Below are positions 42,853 through 61,070 of a stretch of DNA of 64,000 nucleotides, piece by piece. A program made the translations under genes and the position numbers. This stretch comes from an uncultured Bacillales bacterium (lineage in GTDB: Bacteria > Bacillota_I > Bacilli_A > RF39 > UBA660). The notes under the pieces are model-generated. The model had not been told where the DNA came from. It searched no databases and saw only the letters and a program-made list of their open reading frames with translations. Every line of letters starts with the position of its first letter. Within the stretch, counting starts at the first letter, position 1. The stretch lies in the NCBI GenBank assembly GCA_946539445.1, contig CAMNHK010000005.1, positions 1,025-65,024 on the forward strand, written 5' to 3'.

Positions 42853-43500
42853 CTATATTAAAACAATCATGATTAATGCTATCAATACTAAGATGGATAA
42901 AACATCCAAAAACCATTCTTTATGGCAAAAGGCTGGTAGTTTTTGACTAATAATTCGTAATAGATTATAGATTCCAAATCCTAAAATGCTTCCAACAATA
43001 TTTAATATTAAATCATCTACGTCAAATACTCTTCCTATCAGCATTTGAACTACTTCAATAGATATGGAAGCAATTACGGTTAATAAAAGTGGCAAATATA
43101 TTTTTTCCACTTTTAAATAATAACTTGTAAAAAATCCAAATGGTAGAAACATAATCATATTTCCTAAAACATTTTTTATAAATAAACGACTGGTAATATG
43201 ATATCTTAATATTTCACGAAATGGGATAAAATTATTACTGGCCCAAGCTGTATCATCTTGAAAGGTTACCACTTGGAATAAACATAGAATATAAACACCA
43301 AATATTAACATCGATAATTCTTTGTAAATTACAATTCTTTCTTTGTTTTTTATTAAATAACAAATTCGGAAAGATATCATAATAACCATTGAAATAACTA
43401 TCATTGGCCAAGTAAAATGAATAACTCCTTGGATGGTGCTAGAAATTGGGTTTTGCATCTCTTCATCCCCTTTCTCATTCTGTTTTTTCTGGAAGGTCAC
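42853..43500 (-). CDS. VanZ family membrane protein
   Basis: 4-5 TM helices. NFIPFREI and GNMIMFLPFGF motifs. Confidence 0.7.
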   Translation of the reverse strand: MTFQKKQNEKGDEEMQNPISSTIQGVIHFTWPMIVISMVIMISFRICYLIKNKERIVIYKELSMLIFGVYILCLFQVVTFQDDTAWASNNFIPFREILRYHITSRLFIKNVLGNMIMFLPFGFFTSYYLKVEKIYLPLLLTVIASISIEVVQMLIGRVFDVDDLILNIVGSILGFGIYNLLRIISQKLPAFCHKEWFLDVLSILVLIALIMIVLI

Positions 43501-44629
43501 TATAGTCTGTTATATCTTCCTTCACACGCAAAAAAACTTCTACTTCTATTTTACTATTTTTTTGTTGTTTTTTCAAAACTTTTTTCTCTAGGATCTGTTC
43601 TTCTTTTGATAGATTTTGTCGCATTTTATCCGCTGCTATTTTACATGCTATGGAATCGACGTTTTTTGTAGAATAGTTTTTTTCAATTGTGCTTGTTTTT
43701 TGATATTTTCCTATAGCTATTCTAAACGGCAGAATAGAACTATCTAATATATTATACACATCTTTTTTATAGGTCGACCATCGACTATTCCAATCAAACT
43801 CTTTCGTTCCTAACTGAAGATTGATTCCATAGGATGTTTTAGAATCTAATTTTTCTTTTGTTATGGTATTGGGAATTAATACTTTTACAAGATACCATGT
43901 TTCTCCATAAATCTGTCCAGTAGCACATTGACTTGCTACTATTTCTTCTTTGTTGTGAATCCAGCCACTGATTAGTATTTCCCCTTTTTCTACATAGTCT
44001 CCCTTTTTTTTCATTACTTCTCCACTTGATGCATGAATTTCTAGTATATTGGCTTTTTTCTTGGCCACCACATTTCGACCTATACATTCTTCCTTTGGTA
44101 TTTCTTTTTTCTTTTCTTCTATCTGAATCATGTATTTACAGCCAACTCTTTCTATTTCTATCCATTCTACTATGTTTTTTTCTTTTTCCAATATGGTCTT
44201 TTTTATGGCGTTTTCTTTTTCTTTGGATGGCTTCCAATTATATTTTTTTATTCCCAGCTCCGCTAAGTCTTTCTGAATGATTTTCTTCATTGATTCTTTT
44301 GGGTGATGAATTTCTATGCCCCAAATGAATTGTGATAGTCCTATATTTATTCCGATTCCTAGTAAGAATAGTCCTACCCAAATTCGATAATTCCAACCTA
44401 GTTGTTTCCATTTTTCCCAACCATAGTGATGAATAATATGCATTTTGTAAATGGTAGGAATGGATTGTAATTTTTTCCAGTCTTTTTTGGATATGCGAAT
44501 CACCATGGAATGTTTTTTTAAATCCAAGAAATATATATTAATATTATGATAGAGTATTTTTTTTAAGAAGTATTTAGGATTATGTCCCTTTATTTCTACG
44601 TCAATTAGACTTTTCATTTTGAACCTCAA
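43475..44629 (-). CDS. yqfD: Sporulation protein YqfD (stage IV)
   Basis: Size, single central TM helix and conserved position after yqfC. Sequence pattern IEIHHP...GIKKYNW... Confidence 0.75.
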   Translation of the reverse strand: MRFKMKSLIDVEIKGHNPKYFLKKILYHNINIYFLDLKKHSMVIRISKKDWKKLQSIPTIYKMHIIHHYGWEKWKQLGWNYRIWVGLFLLGIGINIGLSQFIWGIEIHHPKESMKKIIQKDLAELGIKKYNWKPSKEKENAIKKTILEKEKNIVEWIEIERVGCKYMIQIEEKKKEIPKEECIGRNVVAKKKANILEIHASSGEVMKKKGDYVEKGEILISGWIHNKEEIVASQCATGQIYGETWYLVKVLIPNTITKEKLDSKTSYGINLQLGTKEFDWNSRWSTYKKDVYNILDSSILPFRIAIGKYQKTSTIEKNYSTKNVDSIACKIAADKMRQNLSKEEQILEKKVLKKQQKNSKIEVEVFLRVKEDITDYSDLPEKTE

Positions 44630-44849
44630 TCGTAGATATTATACCTTCTATTAATAGTTCTTTTTCTAATATTTTTTTTAGGACAAAGAGAGAACCTTTT
44701 ATCGTGTATTTTTGATTTTTGGTTTGGAAGGTTATCCTATTTTCTTCTAAAGAAATAATTCTAGTAAAATTCATAATATGTATTTTATTTTCAAAAATGG
44801 TAAAGCGAAATTCTAAATCATTAATATAATGATTCATTCTGTCTAACAT
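44601..44849 (-). CDS. yqfC: Sporulation protein YqfC
   Basis: 82 aa with a YabP/YqfC-like pattern (ISLEENRITFQT...YTIKGSLFVLKKI). Lies upstream of yqfD. Confidence 0.75.
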   Translation of the reverse strand: MLDRMNHYINDLEFRFTIFENKIHIMNFTRIISLEENRITFQTKNQKYTIKGSLFVLKKILEKELLIEGIISTIEVQNEKSN

Positions 44850-44919: not shown

Positions 44920-45357
44920 TTATTGTAGTTTTCCACGAATGATTGTGGATACTTCTTTCATGTCTGCTTTTCCTTTTAATTTTGCTTGAGCAAGTCCCAT
45001 TACTTTTCCCATATCTTTTGGTCCTTCTGGTTTTACTTCTGCAAAAATTTCATCAATGATTTTTTCCACTTCTTCTTGGGATAATTGTTCTGGCAAGTAA
45101 GCTAAAAGTACCTTGATTTCTTCTTGTGTTTTATCGATTAAATCTTGTCGATTTCCTTTTTCAAATTCTGCTATAGAATCTTTTCTCATTTTGATTTGTT
45201 TATTTACAACATCTATTAATAATTCATCATTGATTTCTTTTTTATGATCGATTTGTTCTTGTTTTAAAGAAGCTTTTACCATACGGATAACAGTTAATCG
45301 ATCTTTTTCTTTATTTTTCATGGCTTCTATCATATCTTTATCTAATTTTTCAATCAT
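44920..45357 (-). CDS. yqeY: GatB/YqeY domain protein
   Basis: MIEKLDKDMIEAMKNKEKDRLTVIRMVKASL...DMGKVMG. The track ORF is over-extended into rpsU. Confidence 0.85.
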   Translation of the reverse strand: MIEKLDKDMIEAMKNKEKDRLTVIRMVKASLKQEQIDHKKEINDELLIDVVNKQIKMRKDSIAEFEKGNRQDLIDKTQEEIKVLLAYLPEQLSQEEVEKIIDEIFAEVKPEGPKDMGKVMGLAQAKLKGKADMKEVSTIIRGKLQ

Positions 45358-45442
45358 ATTCTCATCTCCTGCTACTATTATATATTTTTTTTGTTTATTA
45401 TTCAATGAAAAAATAGTACCCAATTGGATACTATTTGAACTT

Positions 45443-45646
45443 TTAATAATCTTTGCTACGATTTGCACGATCTCTTTTTCTGGAATTTTTAATTCCTTCT
45501 TTCTTTGCTGCTCTTCTTCTAACTCCTGGCTTATCGTAAGCTTCTCTTTTTTTCCATTCAGAAGGGACACCGTCTCTTGCTACTTTTTGTTTGAACTTTC
45601 TTAGAGCTTGATCTAAATTTCCTCTAACAGTTACTTTAGTTGCCAT
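45443..45646 (-). CDS. rpsU: 30S ribosomal protein S21
   Basis: 67 aa. LDQALRKFKQKVARDG...REAYDKPGVRRR. Confidence 0.95.
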   Translation of the reverse strand: MATKVTVRGNLDQALRKFKQKVARDGVPSEWKKREAYDKPGVRRRAAKKEGIKNSRKRDRANRSKDY

Positions 45647-45681
45647 CTACTTTTTCCCTCCCTTCGCTTTAACTAAAATGA

Positions 45682-45710
45682 ATTATATCAAATGTTTTTT
45701 TCATTTTCAA
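45682..45710 (-). promoter_or_regulatory. Near-consensus sigma-A promoter of rpsU
   Basis: Minus strand: TTGAAA (45710..45705), 17 nt, TATAAT (45687..45682). Confidence 0.65.
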
Positions 45711-45717
45711 CCGTTTT

Positions 45718-45870
45718 TTAAGAAAAAACAACGAAAAAATACAAATTTCGTAAAAAAACACCAATATATACACCTAAATTAAAAACAAATCGAATGAGAA
45801 TGGGTAAAATCATTATTATGAAAAGAATAAGGATTCCTATCAGTATTTGTTTGACTATTTTAACGGACAT
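45718..45870 (-). CDS. 50-aa double-TM ORF, candidate bacteriocin immunity protein
   Basis: Hand translation: MSVKIVKQILIGILILFIIMILPILIRFVFNLGVYIGVFLRNLYFFVVFS. Its ATG overlaps the 3' end of peptide B. Below the ORF-track cut-off. The SD is weak. Confidence 0.4.
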   Translation of the reverse strand: MSVKIVKQILIGILILFIIMILPILIRFVFNLGVYIGVFLRNLYFFVVFS

Positions 45871-46028
45871 AACTGATCTTCACTAATTCGTCTTATTCCA
45901 GAGCCAACTGCATATCCTGCATCCTTTATTAATGTGAAAATATCTACTAAAGCATTTAAAATGGTTCCTGTTATGGTACTGGTTCCACCCTTTATTTGAT
46001 TTAGAGATTCTTTCTTTATTCGTTTCAT
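45855..46028 (-). CDS. Double-glycine-leader bacteriocin-like peptide B (57-aa precursor)
   Basis: Hand translation: MKRIKKESLNQIKGG/TSTITGTILNALVDIFTLIKDAGYAVGSGIRRISEDQLCPLK. SD AAGGTG lies 6 nt upstream. The ATG overlaps the peptide A stop (ATGA). Confidence 0.7.
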   Translation of the reverse strand: MKRIKKESLNQIKGGTSTITGTILNALVDIFTLIKDAGYAVGSGIRRISEDQLCPLK

Positions 46029-46180
46029 TCATTACACCTTTCTGGATTCACGATTCCTTCTATGACCCCGGCTATAAAGATAATCAAGGCCGCTATGGCA
46101 ACTCCAACCCATATTGGGGCGCTTGTTCCCCCTTTTATACTTTCTAGTGCTTCTGTATTTAAAACTCTAATGCTAATCAC
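46025..46180 (-). CDS. Double-glycine-leader bacteriocin-like peptide A (51-aa precursor)
   Basis: Hand translation: (GTG)MISIRVLNTEALESIKGG/TSAPIWVGVAIAALIIFIAGVIEGIVNPERCNE. GTG is the only possible start after an in-frame TAA. It overlaps the accessory-gene stop (GTGATTAG), and the SD is poor, suggesting translational coupling. Confidence 0.6.
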   Translation of the reverse strand: MISIRVLNTEALESIKGGTSAPIWVGVAIAALIIFIAGVIEGIVNPERCNE

Positions 46181-46601
46181 CTTCCCATATTATTTTAAAA
46201 ATTTTTATTAATTGTATATTATTTTTATGAATGGATATTTCTATCATATCCTGTATTTTATAGTCGGTTGATTTCTTTAAATGAATCCATAATTCTCGAT
46301 ATTCTTGATTCTTTTTTGTGACAATTTTACCTCTATCCTCTTCGATTTCAAAAGGTATTTTTTTGTTCTTTATATATAAATTTTTGTTTTGTTGAAATAA
46401 CTTTGCTTCTTCTTGATTCACAATAATTGCTGCTAAGTCCTTTCTAACTATTACTCCTCCTATTTTTTGAAATGTTTCGATTTTTATTTGAGTTAATAAA
46501 AAAATAGTAACTCCTTGTGATAGGATTAGTATTATAGCTAATAGTTGAATGAGGGATTGTCTTTCATAATTTCTAATTTTCATATACTCTCCCGTTGGCA
46601 A
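46173..46601 (-). CDS. Small single-TM protein, candidate minimal bacteriocin-export accessory factor
   Basis: N-terminal TM helix (LIQLLAIILILSQGVTIFLL) followed by a ~100-aa beta-rich domain. Sits between the C39-ABC exporter and the peptides, where an HlyD/LcnD-type protein usually lies, but is far shorter. Confidence 0.35.
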   Translation of the reverse strand: MPTGEYMKIRNYERQSLIQLLAIILILSQGVTIFLLTQIKIETFQKIGGVIVRKDLAAIIVNQEEAKLFQQNKNLYIKNKKIPFEIEEDRGKIVTKKNQEYRELWIHLKKSTDYKIQDMIEISIHKNNIQLIKIFKIIWEGD

Positions 46602-48645
46602 TTTTTATGGTTCGATCAAATAAAAACTGATTATTAAAGCGATGAGATATCACTATGATGGTCTTATCCGATAAATAGTTAAATATATTCTTTAGTATTT
46701 TCTTTTCCTTTGAAATGTCGATTCCTGTTAGTGCTTCATCTAAAATATAGATGTTACTTTTTTTGATGATACTTCTTGCGAGAATAATTCGTTGTCTTTC
46801 TCCATGACTATAATTAAAACCATTTTCTTCTATTACCATATCATACCCTGTGATTCCTTTTTTTAGTAGTTCATCTACATAACATATTTTACATACTGTT
46901 TGAAACTCTTCCTCTGAATATTCTTTAAATAATTCTATATTGTTTCTTAACGTATCCGTAAATAAATATTCATCACTTGTGACATAGGTAATATTCGAAC
47001 GAATATTTTCTAAATGATAATGATTGATATCAATATTAGAGATGGATATTATCCCATAGTCTACTTCTATGTATCGTAAAAGCATTTTCAATAATGTACT
47101 TTTCCCAATTCCACTACTTCCTGTTAATAAAATTTTACTTCCTTTTTTTATTTCTAAATTGAGGTTACGAAATAATACTTTACTGCCAATAGTATAATTT
47201 AAGTTTTTTATTCGAATATCCCCATCTAATTGATAAGGAAGATAGAAGTAGTTGTTTTGAAAATTATCTTCTTCTATCATAAATAATTCTTCCACTCTGT
47301 CTAGAGAGATTTTATAGGAATTGTATTCTTCTATCACCGCTAGAATATGATTGAAACAAGTTGAAAAGTATGAAAAAAAGGTTTGATATACAATGAGACT
47401 ACTTAATGTTAGTTCTTCTTGAATTACATAGAATGCTCCGATTCCATAAATACATACTAATACCCAATCATTTATATTATTTTTTAGATAATAGTAGATT
47501 TCTTCCCAGGTTGTCCATTGATATACTTTTTCTAAAAAGGAGCGATAGTTTAGAGAAAATTTATCAATCATCCTTTTTTCTAAATGACTGCCTTTCATCG
47601 TATCTACATTACTTATTCCTTGGATGATATAAGAATTAATTGTATCTTCTCCTTTCACTATTTCTTGTTTTTTTTGTTTTTTTCTCTTTTGAAAAACGAT
47701 GGTTAAAATCGTGATGACTCCAAAAAGAATCATTAGAATGATGGTTAATTCTTTTTGAAAACGAAATAAGAATATGAGAAAAATACCGGCATTTAAAATA
47801 TCGGTTGAGACTACACAAAATAGATTACTAATATAAGATCGAACTCTATTCAAATCTTTGAATCTAGAAACAACCTCTCCTGTTGTCCTATTTTTATAAT
47901 ATAAATATGGAAGTAAAAGAATTTGTTTATAAGTAAGAGTGGTTGTTTCATAGTCAAAGATCATAGTCCATTTATATAGTAAAATATTTCTTACGAAAAT
48001 ATTTGAATTTTTTAAAAGATAGAAACTAATCATCATGTAACTAAGAATGATTAAATTATTTTGATTATTATTATCTATTGAATATTCAAGAATGTATTTA
48101 AAATGAAATGAGGTTATTAAATTTATAATAAAATAAGAGAATGTTAATAGAACAATTAACCATAGTAATTTATGATTTGATTGAATTAGTTTTTTACTAT
48201 TCTGATAGATAATATTTTTCTTCTTCATGATGGGAAGTTTCTTGAATGGTTTTAATAATAAGTAGTTGGAACTTGATAATAGATGAAACTCTGAAAAAGA
48301 AATTGTTTTTTTCCCTTTTGATGGATCCATAATCGTTACTTTCTTTTTTCTTTTGTGTATTTCATAAATAACGACAAAATGATGAATATTTTTATGAATT
48401 ACAATATGAGCAATACAGGGTAAGTTATTTACTTCTATGTTTTCTAGTGATCCTGTAACGCCTATCGAATCCAAACCTATTCTTTTTGCTCCTTCCATTA
48501 AATTATAGAAGGAGGTACCTTCTTTTGTAGTATGGGTTATTTCTCTTAAAAATTCTTTCGATACTTCTCCTCCATAAAATCGAATAATTGATAAAAGACA
48601 ACAAATACCACAATCTTTTATTCCATCCTGTAGGACAATTTTCAC
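46573..48645 (-). CDS. Bacteriocin-processing ABC transporter with N-terminal C39 peptidase domain
   Basis: C39 motifs (QDGIKDCGICCL, HHFVVIYEI), 6-TM domain, Walker A GSSGIGKST, signature SHGERQR, Walker B IYILDEAL. GTG start with RBS AGGAGGTG. Confidence 0.85.
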   Translation of the reverse strand: MKIVLQDGIKDCGICCLLSIIRFYGGEVSKEFLREITHTTKEGTSFYNLMEGAKRIGLDSIGVTGSLENIEVNNLPCIAHIVIHKNIHHFVVIYEIHKRKKKVTIMDPSKGKKTISFSEFHLLSSSNYLLLKPFKKLPIMKKKNIIYQNSKKLIQSNHKLLWLIVLLTFSYFIINLITSFHFKYILEYSIDNNNQNNLIILSYMMISFYLLKNSNIFVRNILLYKWTMIFDYETTTLTYKQILLLPYLYYKNRTTGEVVSRFKDLNRVRSYISNLFCVVSTDILNAGIFLIFLFRFQKELTIILMILFGVITILTIVFQKRKKQKKQEIVKGEDTINSYIIQGISNVDTMKGSHLEKRMIDKFSLNYRSFLEKVYQWTTWEEIYYYLKNNINDWVLVCIYGIGAFYVIQEELTLSSLIVYQTFFSYFSTCFNHILAVIEEYNSYKISLDRVEELFMIEEDNFQNNYFYLPYQLDGDIRIKNLNYTIGSKVLFRNLNLEIKKGSKILLTGSSGIGKSTLLKMLLRYIEVDYGIISISNIDINHYHLENIRSNITYVTSDEYLFTDTLRNNIELFKEYSEEEFQTVCKICYVDELLKKGITGYDMVIEENGFNYSHGERQRIILARSIIKKSNIYILDEALTGIDISKEKKILKNIFNYLSDKTIIVISHRFNNQFLFDRTIKIANGRVYEN

Positions 48646-48689
48646 TTATAATTCTTTCACCTCCTACTAGATTATTCTCTTTATTTTGA

Positions 48690-48727
48690 AAAAAAAACAA
48701 AAAAAAGAAGAGAAAACTCTTCTTTTT
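48690..48727 (-). terminator. Terminator after the 48851..49534 gene
   Basis: AAGAAGAG-AAAA-CTCTTCTT hairpin flanked by long A/T runs. Structurally bidirectional. Confidence 0.65.
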
Positions 48728-48850
48728 GGGATAAACTCTTAACCAAACGCGTGATAATGATTAAAAATTATAGAAAACAAAATTATCTATATTTCCATCC
48801 CATTATCATTTTAGCATATTTTCTTTTTAATATCAATGGTTGGTAATCTC

Positions 48851-49625: not shown

Positions 49626-49701
49626 TGGTGGAGCATAGGAGGATCGAACTCCTGACCTCCACGGTGCAAACGTGGCGCTCTCCCAGCTGAGCTAATGCCC
49701 C
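49626..49701 (-). tRNA. tRNA-Ala (anticodon UGC), CCA encoded
   Basis: Minus strand: GGGGCATTAGCTCAGCTGGGAGAGCGCCACGTTTGCACCGTGGAGGTCAGGAGTTCGATCCTCCTATGCTCCACCA. Folds as a cloverleaf, has the G3:U70 alanine identity pair, and the anticodon loop is TTTGCAC. Confidence 0.9.
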
Positions 49702-49773: not shown

Positions 49774-50511
49774 TTAGTTTTCAAACTTTTTGCGCAAATA
49801 CTCTTCTTCTAGATAATAGTTTTTATCTTGTTCAATTATATGTTTTTTTCCCCGAAAAAAATGGTTCCTATTATGAATAATCTTTGTTTTTTTATAATTA
49901 TATTTATGAAGATATCGTTCTAATAGAAATTTATGATAAATTCTTTCTGTTTTTTGTTGTTCTTTAAAAATGATGATTCCTAATACAATCGTTAAAATCC
50001 AGATGTTTCCTAGTTTATTTGGATGATTCCATAAAAGAAAAAGAATCATACTATAACTTATCATAATAACGATTTTGAAACTTATTTTGAAGGGAAGAAT
50101 TCTCTCTATCAAAATCTTTATCATTTTACCACCATCTAATGGATAAATCGGTAGTAAATTAAAAATCAAAATACTTTCATGATAGAGTTTAATCATTGCT
50201 TGTTTTTCTGGAAAAAGATTTATTAAGAGATAATAAGCAATTGTCTGAAAAAATGGACCAAACCAAAGTATAATCCATTCTTTCCAAGCTTCGATATTAT
50301 AATCCATTACTAGTTTGGAAATTCCTCCTACTGGATATATTTCAACTTCTTGAACGGGTATATGAAAAAAATGGGCTGCTAGACAATGTCCTATCTCGTG
50401 AATTCCTATTAATGAATAAATTACTATGATTTGATAAAAAGATCCTGTTAGAACGGATACTAAGGCAAATAAATAAGTGCTTATATGTATTTTACATATA
50501 CTGCTTATAAT
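49774..50511 (-). CDS. spoIVFB: Site-2 (M50) intramembrane metalloprotease, SpoIVFB-like; probable non-canonical ATT start
   Basis: NLLPIYPLDGG in the track ORF. The HEIGH motif and first TM helix (KIHISTYLFALVSVLTG...IGIHEIGH) lie in the same frame upstream of the first ATG. The frame opens right after a TAG, with ATT at 50511 and GGAGAG 7 nt upstream. Confidence 0.7.
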   Translation of the reverse strand: MISSICKIHISTYLFALVSVLTGSFYQIIVIYSLIGIHEIGHCLAAHFFHIPVQEVEIYPVGGISKLVMDYNIEAWKEWIILWFGPFFQTIAYYLLINLFPEKQAMIKLYHESILIFNLLPIYPLDGGKMIKILIERILPFKISFKIVIMISYSMILFLLWNHPNKLGNIWILTIVLGIIIFKEQQKTERIYHKFLLERYLHKYNYKKTKIIHNRNHFFRGKKHIIEQDKNYYLEEEYLRKKFEN

Positions 50512-51037
50512 CTAGATACTCTCCATTCTTTTGAAATGTTAGATATAAATAGTCTTCCTCCATCGAACCTATTATTTCGCCTTTTTCTACATAGTCATAT
50601 AGTTTTTTTGAGGAGTTTATGTTTTGATAGGCAACTTCTACTCCATTTACTTGTTCTACAATCATCATATGGTTTTTCAAATATACAATTACTCCTGTTT
50701 CTAAACTAGATACAGGACTTGATATTCCTAGTTTTATACGTACTCCTTCTCCACTTTCTTCGATATTTTGAAATCCGGTTTCTTCCGATAAAACTGGTTC
50801 TAGTGAGGTGTTTCCTATGGATAATACATTTCCAAAATATTGGTTATATAATTTACTTATAGAAGGAAATGATAGACTTCTTTCGTATAATACTTTGTGA
50901 AACGTTTCTTTGTATTTTTCTTGCTCTTTTACTAAGATCATACCTACTAATAAAATAATAATGGATATTAAACATTTACTAAAAAAAATTTTAATTTTTG
51001 GTTTTAATACTAGTCTTTTTTCTATTCTTTTATTCAT
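50492..51037 (-). CDS. spoIVFA: SpoIVFA-like protein (TM helix plus degenerate LytM/M23 domain)
   Basis: N-terminal TM helix. C-terminal M23-like fold pattern without the catalytic His residues. Position between mreD and spoIVFB as in Bacillus. Confidence 0.6.
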   Translation of the reverse strand: MNKRIEKRLVLKPKIKIFFSKCLISIIILLVGMILVKEQEKYKETFHKVLYERSLSFPSISKLYNQYFGNVLSIGNTSLEPVLSEETGFQNIEESGEGVRIKLGISSPVSSLETGVIVYLKNHMMIVEQVNGVEVAYQNINSSKKLYDYVEKGEIIGSMEEDYLYLTFQKNGEYLDYKQYM

Positions 51038-60862: not shown

Positions 60863-61070
60863 CCAAAAGGACGAATTACTCGTGGTACCACCTTAGTTTC
60901 TATCAAATTGATAGCTTATTTGGATAACGGGATTTTCCCGGAATTTCTTAAAGTTATTTTCAGAAATTATGCTCCTCTGCTACCTTCTTTATTCTTTTTT
61001 ATTCATTTTCACCAACCATGAACTCTCTTAAAAAAAAGATATAAATACTCCTCAGATTCCTCGCATCTGT
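60848..61070 (-). promoter_or_regulatory. T-box riboswitch leader, probable Val (GUA) specifier
   Basis: Minus strand: stem I with GA/K-turn elements and AGAGA...GGTGAAA. Specifier loop GAAG-GUA-G (GUA at 60983..60981). T-box sequence AAGGTGGTACCACG (about 60880..60895). Terminator AGTAATTC-12 nt-GAATTACT plus T7 (60848..60880). Confidence 0.8.

What the first reader, a model, noticed from the sequence alone, without database searches (positions are those of the whole stretch)
45718..48645. Unannotated two-peptide bacteriocin-like operon (exporter first; peptides and a tiny membrane ORF last, all overlapping)
Downstream of a C39-peptidase ABC exporter and a 142-aa single-TM protein, hand translation reveals three small overlapping ORFs that the ORF track misses. 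Peptide A is MISIRVLNTEALESIKGG/TSAPIWVGVAIAALIIFIAGVIEGIVNPERCNE. Peptide B is MKRIKKESLNQIKGG/TSTITGTILNALVDIFTLIKDAGYAVGSGIRRISEDQLCPLK. The third is a 50-aa double-TM ORF. Both peptides carry the double-glycine leader cleaved by C39 exporters. Both predicted mature parts begin with TS and contain GxxxG motifs (GVIEG; GYAVG), as in class IIb two-peptide bacteriocins. Each mature peptide has exactly one Cys within its last four residues, so an intermolecular disulfide or thiol-dependent pairing is conceivable (inference only). Three features are atypical. The gene order is inverted, with the exporter upstream of its substrates. The accessory protein is far shorter than LcnD/ComB-type partners. 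There is no pheromone, kinase or regulator module. Peptide A starts at GTG with almost no SD and overlaps the upstream stop, implying coupled translation and fixed stoichiometry.
Basis: partly seen in the sequence, partly recalled or inferred. Interest (0 to 1): 0.7.

Follow-up and report, generated by a model that had tools for sequence, protein, structure and literature searches.

The report
Conserved two-peptide export operon beside rpsU

Summary
On the minus strand, 48645-45718 holds five overlapping genes:
- a C39-peptidase ABC exporter (PCAT)
- a 136-aa single-pass accessory protein
- two double-glycine-leader peptides, A (51 aa) and B (57 aa)
- a 50-aa hydrophobic ORF C

All five recur in more than 25 divergent metagenomic lineages. 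A and B are under purifying selection (dN/dS about 0.2-0.3). Their GxxxG glycines and one C-terminal Cys each never change.

New points:
1. The operon always lies directly upstream of rpsU. It was present in 10 of 10 places sampled by S21 alone, so it is a core, vertically inherited locus.
2. The accessory protein founds a large new family of about 197 clusters. It has no solved fold relative and is not HlyD-like. It is weakly related to the mycoplasma MAG1140 family.
3. The mature peptides are neutral to anionic. Peptide A only brushes class IIb models, and the mature part of B is a new family.
4. ORF C is degenerate in five lineages that keep A and B.
5. An undescribed structured RNA with its own terminator precedes the exporter in most lineages.

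Export and cleavage are well supported. Antimicrobial function is plausible but unproven. I rate this a new variant of a known kind.

The parts
46573..48645 (-). PCAT: a C39-peptidase ABC exporter, 690 aa, GTG start. The peptidase domain is encoded at about 48247-48642.
   Evidence: - Pfam: Peptidase_C39 1.9e-29, ABC_membrane 4.8e-27, ABC_tran 3.4e-24.
- Closest solved structures: PCAT1 4ry2 (276 bits, full length) and ComA 8hf7.
- Gln6, Cys12, His89 and Asp107 align with the catalytic residues of PCAT1. Cys12 aligns with the Ala of the Cys-to-Ala entry 7n87.
- Below every NCBIfam cut-off (TIGR01193 322 < 524; Mbov_0121 family 291 < 500).
46173..46583 (-). Accessory protein, 136 aa from the conserved ATG (the ORF extends to a TTG at 46601). 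It has an N-terminal TM helix followed by a small beta-rich domain that ends in ...IWEGD.
   Evidence: - Always follows the exporter.
- Exhaustive phmmer found 197 clusters at E<=1e-3, all about 135 aa.
- AF2 model has pLDDT 93.
- No Foldseek PDB hit better than E 1e-2.
- 17 of 76 members weakly hit NCBIfam MAG1140_fam, best E 8.5e-7. The window protein scores 18.7 bits against a cut-off of 35.
46025..46180 (-). Peptide A precursor, 51 aa. The leader MISIRVLNTEALESIKGG is encoded at 46127-46180. The mature part TSAPIWVGVAIAALIIFIAGVIEGIVNPERCNE is encoded at 46028-46126.
   Evidence: - Conserved in all 30 loci that reach it.
- Invariant G17 G18 (cleavage site), F35, G38, G42, P46 and C49.
- dN/dS 0.27.
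- Pfam Bacteriocin_IIc 21.2 bits against GA 27.1.
- 20 of 25 orthologues hit Bacteriocin_IIc weakly.
- 19 of 25 hit NF038034 and 16 of 25 hit TIGR03949 weakly.
45855..46028 (-). Peptide B precursor, 57 aa. The leader MKRIKKESLNQIKGG is encoded at 45984-46028. The mature part TSTITGTILNALVDIFTLIKDAGYAVGSGIRRISEDQLCPLK is encoded at 45858-45983.
   Evidence: - Conserved in all 31 loci.
- Invariant L9, G14 G15, A37 G38, G42 S43, R46 R47 and C54 P55.
- dN/dS 0.22.
- Only leader-level weak family hits.
- No solved relative.
- The AF2 model is helical but low confidence, pLDDT 57.
45718..45870 (-). ORF C, a 50-aa hydrophobic protein. Its ATG lies inside the Leu-Cys-Pro codons of peptide B.
   Evidence: - Same frame and start in 24 distinct versions of 39-54 aa, with a conserved P..P.I.F.F.LG.Y.G.FLR..Y motif.
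- The second codon position is the least variable; dN/dS 0.52.
- Degenerate or deleted in L056, L070, L062 and L067 and truncated in L079.
- No family hit.
48657..48676 (-). Ribosome-binding site AGGAGGTGA (48665-48657) of the exporter gene, preceded by a conserved AATAAT (-10-like, 48676-48671).
   Evidence: Read from the sequence. The motif ..GAATAAT..N8-10..TAGGAGGTGA is kept in every lineage, with or without the upstream RNA. Its role as a promoter is inferred.
48702..48836 (-). Upstream transcription unit. It has an extended -10 promoter (48836-48808), a structured RNA with a three-way junction (48801-48728) and an intrinsic terminator (48727-48702). It is either a leader or attenuator of the operon, or a separate small RNA.
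   Evidence: - Promoter and terminator scan.
- Fold energy -28.9 kcal/mol, z -4.6.
- No Rfam family.
- Same position in at least 15 lineages.
- Pair counts: 87.6% paired, 10 of 26 pairs with double changes.
45443..45710 (-). rpsU (ribosomal protein S21, 45646-45443) with its own promoter-like site TTGAAA-17-TATAAT (45710-45682), which begins 8 nt after the ORF C stop. No terminator separates the operon from rpsU.
   Evidence: -.
- rpsU follows peptide B within 183-227 nt in every contig long enough, except L057 and L058.
- 10 of 10 S21-anchored places carry the operon.

Best explanation
This is a dedicated, translationally coupled two-peptide export module.

How it works:
1. Precursors A and B are made from overlapping genes in roughly fixed proportion.
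2. Each carries a 15-18-residue double-glycine leader, with hydrophobic residues at -4, -7 and -12.
3. The C39 domain of the ABC exporter cuts after Gly-Gly while the transporter moves the peptide out.
4. The exporter works with a family-specific 136-aa single-pass partner rather than an HlyD-type adaptor.

Products:
- Mature A has 32-35 residues and is essentially one transmembrane helix with an invariant G-x-x-x-G. It ends in NP-x-x-C.
- Mature B has 41-43 residues. It is probably helical (only a low-confidence model supports this), has an invariant AG-x-x-x-GS-x-x-RR and ends in L-C-P.

Most likely the two peptides act together in a membrane, packed helix to helix through the GxxxG motifs as class IIb two-peptide bacteriocins do. 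Their two invariant cysteines may link them covalently. ORF C is an auxiliary small membrane protein, possibly protective, and is dispensable.

Shown by sequence and comparison: the genes, their conservation, the intact protease and ATPase motifs, and the leaders.

Inferred: cleavage and export (from PCAT1 and ComA), joint action of A and B, any disulfide, and antimicrobial activity.

The confidence figure is for the whole statement, including bacteriocin-like action. For 'a real PCAT operon exporting A and B' alone it is about 0.9.
For: - Gene structure and overlaps.
- PCAT domains and catalytic residues.
- Canonical leaders, with GG invariant in 25-26 aligned orthologues of each peptide.
- Purifying selection on A and B.
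- Invariant GxxxG glycines and single Cys.
- Cys conservation is independent of the overlapping signals. L032 has a separate SD, and loci without ORF C keep the Cys-Pro of B (LCPL, VCPL or ICPL).
- Weak but recurrent similarity of A to class IIb families: Bacteriocin_IIc 20/25, NF038034 19/25, TIGR03949 16/25.
- A small hydrophobic gene lies directly after the peptides.
- No modification enzymes, kinases or regulators nearby.
Against: - All family scores for the window peptides are below curated cut-offs. The mature part of B matches nothing.
- Mature peptides are not cationic. Mean net charge is -0.96 for A and +0.3 for B.
- The locus is core and syntenic in every genome sampled through S21. 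It shows no compositional anomaly and has no plasmid relatives. Purifying selection is strongest on the mature C-termini. This is unlike the usual patchy, fast-changing bacteriocin loci.
- ORF C is lost in five lineages that keep A and B. This argues against a self-toxic product that needs this gene for immunity.
- These are anaerobic gut and rumen organisms, where extracellular disulfides are less favoured (general knowledge).
Confidence: 0.55

Rival explanations
1. The exported peptides are not weapons. They are a conserved physiological factor of this clade. For example, a membrane-anchored A-B heterodimer could act on the producer's own envelope. The PCAT and its small partner would then be a housekeeping export route, homologous to the 'orphan' C39 ABC systems of mycoplasmas.
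For: - Present upstream of rpsU in 10 of 10 S21-anchored places, while the upstream neighbours differ.
- Strong purifying selection, and almost identical mature cores across lineages whose accessory proteins are only 23-40% identical.
- Non-cationic peptides.
- ORF C is dispensable.
- The accessory family is weakly but significantly related to the mycoplasma MAG1140 family over its full length.
- Mycoplasmas, including JCVI-syn3A, keep C39 ABC transporters with no known GG substrate (PMC6609329).
Against: - No positive evidence for any such function.
- One natural allele has peptide A split by an integrase element, so the system is not essential.
- Peptide A does resemble class IIb bacteriocins weakly.
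- I could not check whether MAG1140 and the Mbov_0121-type exporter are adjacent in mycoplasmas, or whether peptides lie next to them.
Confidence: 0.3
2. A and/or B are quorum-sensing pheromones of the ComC/BlpC type, exported by the PCAT.
For: - GG leaders and a PCAT are shared with ComC/ComA.
- A few orthologues give weak ComC or EntF-induction-factor hits.
- The review abstract in PMC7018657 states that PCAT cargo includes signals.
Against: - No histidine kinase or response regulator within the neighbourhood, in any lineage.
- Mature peptides are long (33-42 aa), very hydrophobic (A), and conserved across species rather than split into pherotypes.
- The weak hits cover the leader only.
Confidence: 0.07
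3. The small ORFs are chance reading frames in an intergenic tail between the exporter and rpsU.
For: ORF C is short, has low-complexity hydrophobic composition and only moderate constraint (dN/dS 0.52). It is missing in some lineages.
Against: - A and B keep frame, length, leader and motifs in more than 25 lineages, with variation biased to the third codon position.
- ORF C keeps its start, frame and motif in 24 versions.
Confidence: 0.02

Closest known systems
Class IIb (two-peptide, unmodified) bacteriocins, e.g. lactococcin G/enterocin 1071, lactobin A/cerein 7B, plantaricin EF/JK
   Same: - Two adjacent genes for double-glycine-leader peptides.
- A dedicated C39 ABC exporter.
- GxxxG motifs in both peptides.
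- A small hydrophobic gene next to them.
- Peptide A orthologues hit NF038034 and TIGR03949 weakly.
   Different: - Scores are below the family cut-offs, and B's mature part is unrelated to any model.
- Peptides are neutral or anionic.
- One invariant Cys in each peptide.
- No LcnD-type accessory.
- Core chromosomal locus fixed next to rpsU across a clade.
- The putative immunity gene is often lost.
PCAT1 of Clostridium (Acetivibrio) thermocellum and ComA of Streptococcus (solved peptidase-containing ABC transporters)
   Same: - Full-length homology: 276 and 240 bits.
- Conserved Gln/Cys/His/Asp of the C39 domain.
- Walker A and B motifs present.
   Different: - Only distant identity.
- Below the cut-off of TIGR01193 and all other NCBIfam models.
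- Always paired with a 136-aa partner of a new family.
Mycoplasma Mbov_0121-family C39 ABC transporter, the MAG1140 family protein (NCBIfam NF045998, NF045999) and JCVI-syn3A gene 0401
   Same: - The exporter hits NF045998 (291 bits).
- The accessory family hits NF045999 over nearly its full length (17 of 76 members, best E 8.5e-7).
- Both accessory families are about 126-136 aa with an N-terminal TM.
   Different: - All scores are below the cut-offs.
- In mycoplasmas no GG peptide has been identified (PMC6609329), whereas here two are obvious.
- Gene adjacency in mycoplasmas was not checked here.
LcnD/ComB/HlyD-type accessory (membrane fusion) proteins of Gram-positive bacteriocin exporters
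   Same: Single N-terminal TM, extracytoplasmic beta-rich domain, encoded next to the exporter.
   Different: - One third of the size.
- No HlyD Pfam hit.
- Foldseek gives only insignificant matches to MexA, AcrA and BesA (E 0.45-0.73, TM 0.3-0.39).

Membership tests
Class IIb two-peptide bacteriocin | Two adjacent co-transcribed genes encoding peptides with double-glycine leaders | tested here: met
   The 4-nt ATGA overlap holds in this window; spacing differs in some lineages. The leaders have GG and hydrophobic residues at -4, -7 and -12 in all lineages.
Class IIb two-peptide bacteriocin | GxxxG (small-xxx-small) helix-packing motif in both peptides | tested here: met
   G38 and G42 are invariant in A, and G38 and G42 are invariant in B.
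Class IIb two-peptide bacteriocin | Sequence membership in a curated bacteriocin model (PF10439, TIGR03949, NF038034) above its cut-off | tested here: not met
   Window peptide A scores 21.2 < 27.1, 17.8 < 21.5 and 13.3 < 37. Peptide B has no hit. Orthologues give recurrent weak hits only.
Class IIb two-peptide bacteriocin | Cationic mature peptides (typical, not absolute) | tested here: not met
   Net charge of A ranges from -2 to +1 (mean -0.96). Net charge of B ranges from -2 to +2 (mean +0.3).
Class IIb two-peptide bacteriocin | Cognate immunity gene in the operon | tested here: inconclusive
   ORF C is in the expected place. It has no family and is degenerate in five lineages that keep A and B.
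Class IIb two-peptide bacteriocin | Antimicrobial activity that needs both peptides | not testable with these tools
   Needs synthetic or purified peptides.
Peptidase-containing ABC transporter (PCAT / AMS exporter) | N-terminal C39 domain with catalytic Cys/His/Asp and the oxyanion Gln | tested here: met
   Q6, C12, H89 and D107 align with PCAT1. C12 aligns with the mutated Ala of 7n87.
Peptidase-containing ABC transporter (PCAT / AMS exporter) | ABC_membrane plus ABC_tran domains, with full-length similarity to solved PCATs | tested here: met
Peptidase-containing ABC transporter (PCAT / AMS exporter) | Score above the cut-off of TIGR01193 or another named subfamily | tested here: not met
   322.5 < 523.85. 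All other models are also below cut-off, so this is a separate subfamily.
MAG1140 family (NCBIfam NF045999) | Score of at least 35 bits against the model | tested here: not met
   The window protein scores 18.2-18.7 bits. 17 of 76 relatives hit with E<=0.01, best 8.5e-7. This is a distant relative, not a member.
MAG1140 family (NCBIfam NF045999) | Encoded next to a C39 ABC transporter | tested here: inconclusive
   True here in every locus.
HlyD/LcnD/ComB membrane fusion accessory | HlyD-type domains (coiled-coil hairpin, lipoyl, beta-barrel), about 400-470 aa | tested here: not met
   136 aa, no HlyD Pfam hit, no significant structural match.
ComC/BlpC-type peptide pheromone system | Adjacent histidine kinase and response regulator | tested here: not met
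   None in the window neighbourhood or in any related locus.

The most novel reading that the evidence does not exclude
The operon is an ancient core-genome peptide export system of a Mollicutes-related branch of Bacilli, not an antagonistic bacteriocin. Its exporter and small-partner pair would be the walled-cell counterpart of the orphan C39 ABC transporters that mycoplasmas retain, including in the minimal cell JCVI-syn3A. Peptides A and B would show what kind of substrate those transporters handle. The undescribed structured RNA in front of the exporter would be its cis-regulator.
Probability: 0.15. Interest if true: 0.8.

Novelty: new variant of a known kind. Interest (0 to 1): 0.55.

Why it matters
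- It defines three new, well-populated protein families from uncultured herbivore-gut Bacilli: peptide A, peptide B and the 136-aa PCAT partner. All are tied to one exporter.
- A bacteriocin-like two-peptide module can be a fixed core locus, glued to rpsU across a whole clade. That raises the question of whether such peptides always serve competition.
- The invariant cysteine pair gives a concrete chemical hypothesis to test: a covalent heterodimer.
- The weak but full-length link between the accessory protein and the mycoplasma MAG1140 family gives a handle on an open question: what the C39 ABC transporters of mycoplasmas and of the minimal cell export.
- The upstream RNA is a candidate new regulatory RNA.

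Tried and rejected
- **Genome scan.** The genome-contig scan with the exporter found only distant ABC proteins (23-28% identity) and no relative of the operon.
- **Metagenome scan.** The peptide B alignment worked instead.
- **HlyD-like accessory.** Rejected: no Pfam hit and no significant Foldseek match. The profile search against PDB sequences gave nothing.
- **Solved relatives of A and B.** None. The ARX1 and GldL matches are chance level.
- **Cys invariance as a by-product of overlapping signals.** I considered the SD for B inside A and the ORF C start inside B. Rejected, because lineages with a separate SD or without ORF C keep the Cys.
- **Horizontal island.** No GC anomaly and no plasmid relatives.
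- **Rfam.** Searches of the upstream RNA found nothing.
- **Structure-aware MAFFT.** Not installed. The plain MAFFT/RNAalifold alignment was poor, so I used a covariance model instead.
- **Literature.** Searches found nothing on Mbov_0121/MAG1140 function or on disulfide-linked two-peptide bacteriocins.
- **Taxonomy.** Only 'Bacilli bacterium' could be recovered from a source name.
- **AF2 of peptide B.** Confidence too low to use.


Full report
**1. Observation**

| Gene | Coordinates | Length | Start |
|---|---|---|---|
| ABC exporter | 48645-46573 | 690 aa | GTG |
| Accessory | 46601-46173 | 142 aa (136 aa from the ATG at 46583) | TTG / ATG |
| Peptide A | 46180-46025 | 51 aa | GTG |
| Peptide B | 46028-45855 | 57 aa | ATG |
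| ORF C | 45870-45718 | 50 aa | ATG |

Every neighbouring pair overlaps, by 11, 8, 4 and 16 nt in order. The quoted translations are correct. Public gene callers had already called A and B, and in one lineage ORF C, on metagenome contigs that carry the identical exporter. None has a name or a Pfam domain.

**2. The genes are real**

Word-indexed searches with A and B found a handful of relatives at 60-79% identity. Their contigs show the same five genes in the same order.

The accessory protein led to much more distant lineages, at 23-40% identity, that again carry A, B and C. A metagenome scan with the conserved core of B added 25 loci from rumen, sloth and other gut samples.

I extracted 27 distinct nucleotide versions of A and of B, and 24 of ORF C.
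- Variation in A and B is concentrated at third codon positions.
- Pairwise dN/dS is about 0.27 for A and 0.22 for B. Synonymous sites are close to saturation, so these values are approximate.
- ORF C is less constrained (0.52). It keeps its start, frame, length of 39-54 aa and a P..P.I.F.F.LG.Y.G.FLR..Y motif.

**3. Exporter**

The 690-aa protein has Peptidase_C39, ABC_membrane and ABC_tran domains. It aligns over its full length with the solved PCAT1 (276 bits) and ComA (240 bits).

Gln6, Cys12, His89 and Asp107 align with the catalytic residues of PCAT1. Cys12 falls on the Ala of the Cys-to-Ala entry 7n87. The protease is therefore predicted to be active and is not a degenerate C39-like domain.

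It lies below the cut-off of every NCBIfam model, including TIGR01193 and the mycoplasma Mbov_0121 family.

**4. Accessory protein**

An exhaustive phmmer search found 197 clusters (50% identity level) at E<=1e-3, all about 135 aa. Every context I could fetch is this same operon.

The AlphaFold model is confident (pLDDT 93). It shows an N-terminal TM helix, a small beta-rich domain and a C-terminal helix. Foldseek against the PDB gives nothing better than E 0.014, and only insignificant matches to MexA, AcrA and BesA. A profile search of PDB sequences is also empty. It is not an LcnD/ComB/HlyD-type adaptor.

The only family signal is NCBIfam MAG1140_fam. The window protein scores 18.7 bits against a cut-off of 35. 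Seventeen of 76 relatives hit at E<=0.01, best 8.5e-7, over nearly the full model. This points to distant homology with a mycoplasma family, not membership.

**5. Peptides**

Both leaders fit the double-glycine consensus: GG, with hydrophobic residues at -4, -7 and -12.

The start of A varies between lineages. Many have a GTG overlapping the accessory stop. Others have an ATG at -15, -17, -18 or -21.

Mature A has 32-35 residues and is one hydrophobic helix. F35, G38, G42, P46 and C49 are invariant.

Mature B has 41-43 residues. A37 G38, G42 S43, R46 R47 and C54 P55 are invariant.

The two cysteines are not explained by the overlapping signals. L032 keeps the Cys of A although its SD for B lies outside A. 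Lineages without ORF C keep the Cys-Pro of B (LCPL, VCPL or ICPL).

'Mature part begins with TS' is lineage-specific.

Family scans:
- A orthologues hit Pfam Bacteriocin_IIc (20 of 25), NF038034 lactococcin G-beta/enterocin 1071B (19 of 25) and TIGR03949 lactobin A/cerein 7B (16 of 25). These hits are weak. The window peptide is below all cut-offs.
- B matches only through its leader.
- Neither has a solved relative.

Mature peptides are not cationic. Mean net charge is -0.96 for A and +0.3 for B. A single-chain AF2 model of B is helical but of low confidence.

**6. ORF C**

It sits where an immunity gene would. It has no family. It is reduced to remnants in L056 and L070, deleted in L062 and L067, and truncated in L079. 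All of these keep intact A and B.

**7. Context**

In every contig long enough, rpsU follows peptide B within 183-227 nt. The exceptions are L057 and L058.

A consensus-like promoter for rpsU starts 8 nt after the ORF C stop. No terminator-like site lies between the operon and rpsU.

As an independent test, I looked up the exact S21 protein of the window. Ten of ten distinct places carry the operon directly upstream. Their upstream neighbours differ: an M50 peptidase, a 226-aa anchored protein, a rhomboid, a LysR regulator and others.

The operon is therefore a core, vertically inherited unit with rpsU. It is not a variable island. Its GC content equals the flanks, and no plasmid carries relatives.

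In one place (L084) a large serine integrase element is inserted inside peptide A, at ...GVIEG|ITNPERCNG. L080 has the intact allele. The system is therefore not essential.

No kinase, regulator or modification enzyme is nearby.

The organism is an uncultured low-GC 'Bacilli bacterium' from herbivore guts. Sporulation genes are present in this lineage.

**8.

Between the previous gene and the exporter lie three elements in order:
- a strong extended -10 promoter (48836-48808)
- a 74-nt three-way-junction RNA (48801-48728)
- an intrinsic terminator (48727-48702)

The RNA has an invariant loop UAUCACGCGU and a U-rich second loop. It matches no Rfam family.

It occupies the same place in at least 15 lineages. 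A second sequence class has a fully compensated closing stem. A covariance model found it in loci not used for training, always 100-190 nt before the exporter start, and nowhere else in the 64-kb window.

On the model-fitted alignment, 87.6% of cells pair and 10 of 26 pairs show double changes. That alignment leans towards the structure.

The RNA is absent in L026/L078, L057/58, L071 and L080, and reduced to a remnant in L066. A conserved AATAAT just before the exporter's SD is kept with or without the RNA. The operon may therefore have its own promoter. I cannot tell whether the RNA is an attenuator or a separate sRNA.

**9. Mechanism and rivals**

Well supported: A and B are made together, recognised through their leaders, cut after GG by the C39 domain and exported by the ABC transporter with its small partner.

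Inferred: the two mature peptides act together in a membrane through GxxxG packing, as class IIb bacteriocins do. The invariant cysteines may link them.

The main rival is that these peptides serve a conserved, non-antagonistic role. It rests on these points:
- the locus is in the core genome and is glued to rpsU
- purifying selection is strong
- the peptides are not cationic
- ORF C can be lost
- the accessory protein is linked to mycoplasma systems

A published model of JCVI-syn3A notes that its C39 ABC protein 0401, and those of other mycoplasmas, have no identified GG peptide (PMC6609329).

A pheromone role is unlikely, because there is no sensor and no pherotype variation.

**10. Verdict**

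This is a new variant of a known kind. It combines new peptide and accessory families, unusual genomic fixity and a candidate new RNA. Interest is moderate to fairly high.

Noticed in passing
window 48702-48836 (-); also L032 4578-4654, L062 1227-1302, L076 1326-1410, L077 1336-1398, L079 1393-1476: An undescribed structured RNA lies directly upstream of the exporter in at least 15 lineages. It is a three-way junction with an invariant loop UAUCACGCGU, its own extended -10 promoter and its own terminator. It has no Rfam match. Covariation supports the fold. It could be a leader or attenuator of the operon, or an independent sRNA.
   Followed up: partly
L084 2397-4110 (compare L080 3940-4110): A large serine integrase (PHROG 95, E 2e-134), with small unknown genes upstream of it, is inserted inside peptide A at ...GVIEG|ITNPERCNG. 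The conserved peptide gene therefore serves as an attachment site for a mobile element or prophage.
   Followed up: partly
window 44920-45646 (-); L001 9076-9726: On the public contigs identical to the window, the gene caller did not call rpsU (45646-45443). It called instead a 216-aa YqeY ORF extended upstream in another frame. Related lineages have separate rpsU (67 aa) and YqeY (about 146 aa) genes.
   Followed up: no
L026/L078, L080, L085 versus window 43475-44849 and 49774-51037: Close relatives lack yqfC/yqfD, and L026 also lacks the M23 and M50 (SpoIVFA/FB-like) genes that the window lineage has. The operon is kept either way. This suggests sporulation genes were lost within the clade, and that the operon is independent of sporulation.
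   Followed up: no
window 48677-48701 (-) and the same place in L026, L032, L039, L042, L066: The tract after the terminator, T8-G-T7-9, is conserved upstream of the exporter whether the terminator belongs to the RNA or to the preceding protein gene. It may serve as the -35/UP region of the operon promoter.
   Followed up: no
window 60864-61070 (-) and 49629-49701 (-): A T-box leader (142 bits) and a tRNA gene are the only Rfam matches in the window.
   Followed up: no
window 46173-46190 (-): The conserved C-terminus of the accessory protein (..IWEGD/G) is encoded by TGGGAAGGTGAT. This sequence also provides the SD-like GAAGGTGA and the GTG start of peptide A. In L026 the same sequence serves as the SD for an ATG 3 nt after the stop. 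Part of that protein motif may be held in place by its role in translating peptide A.
   Followed up: partly
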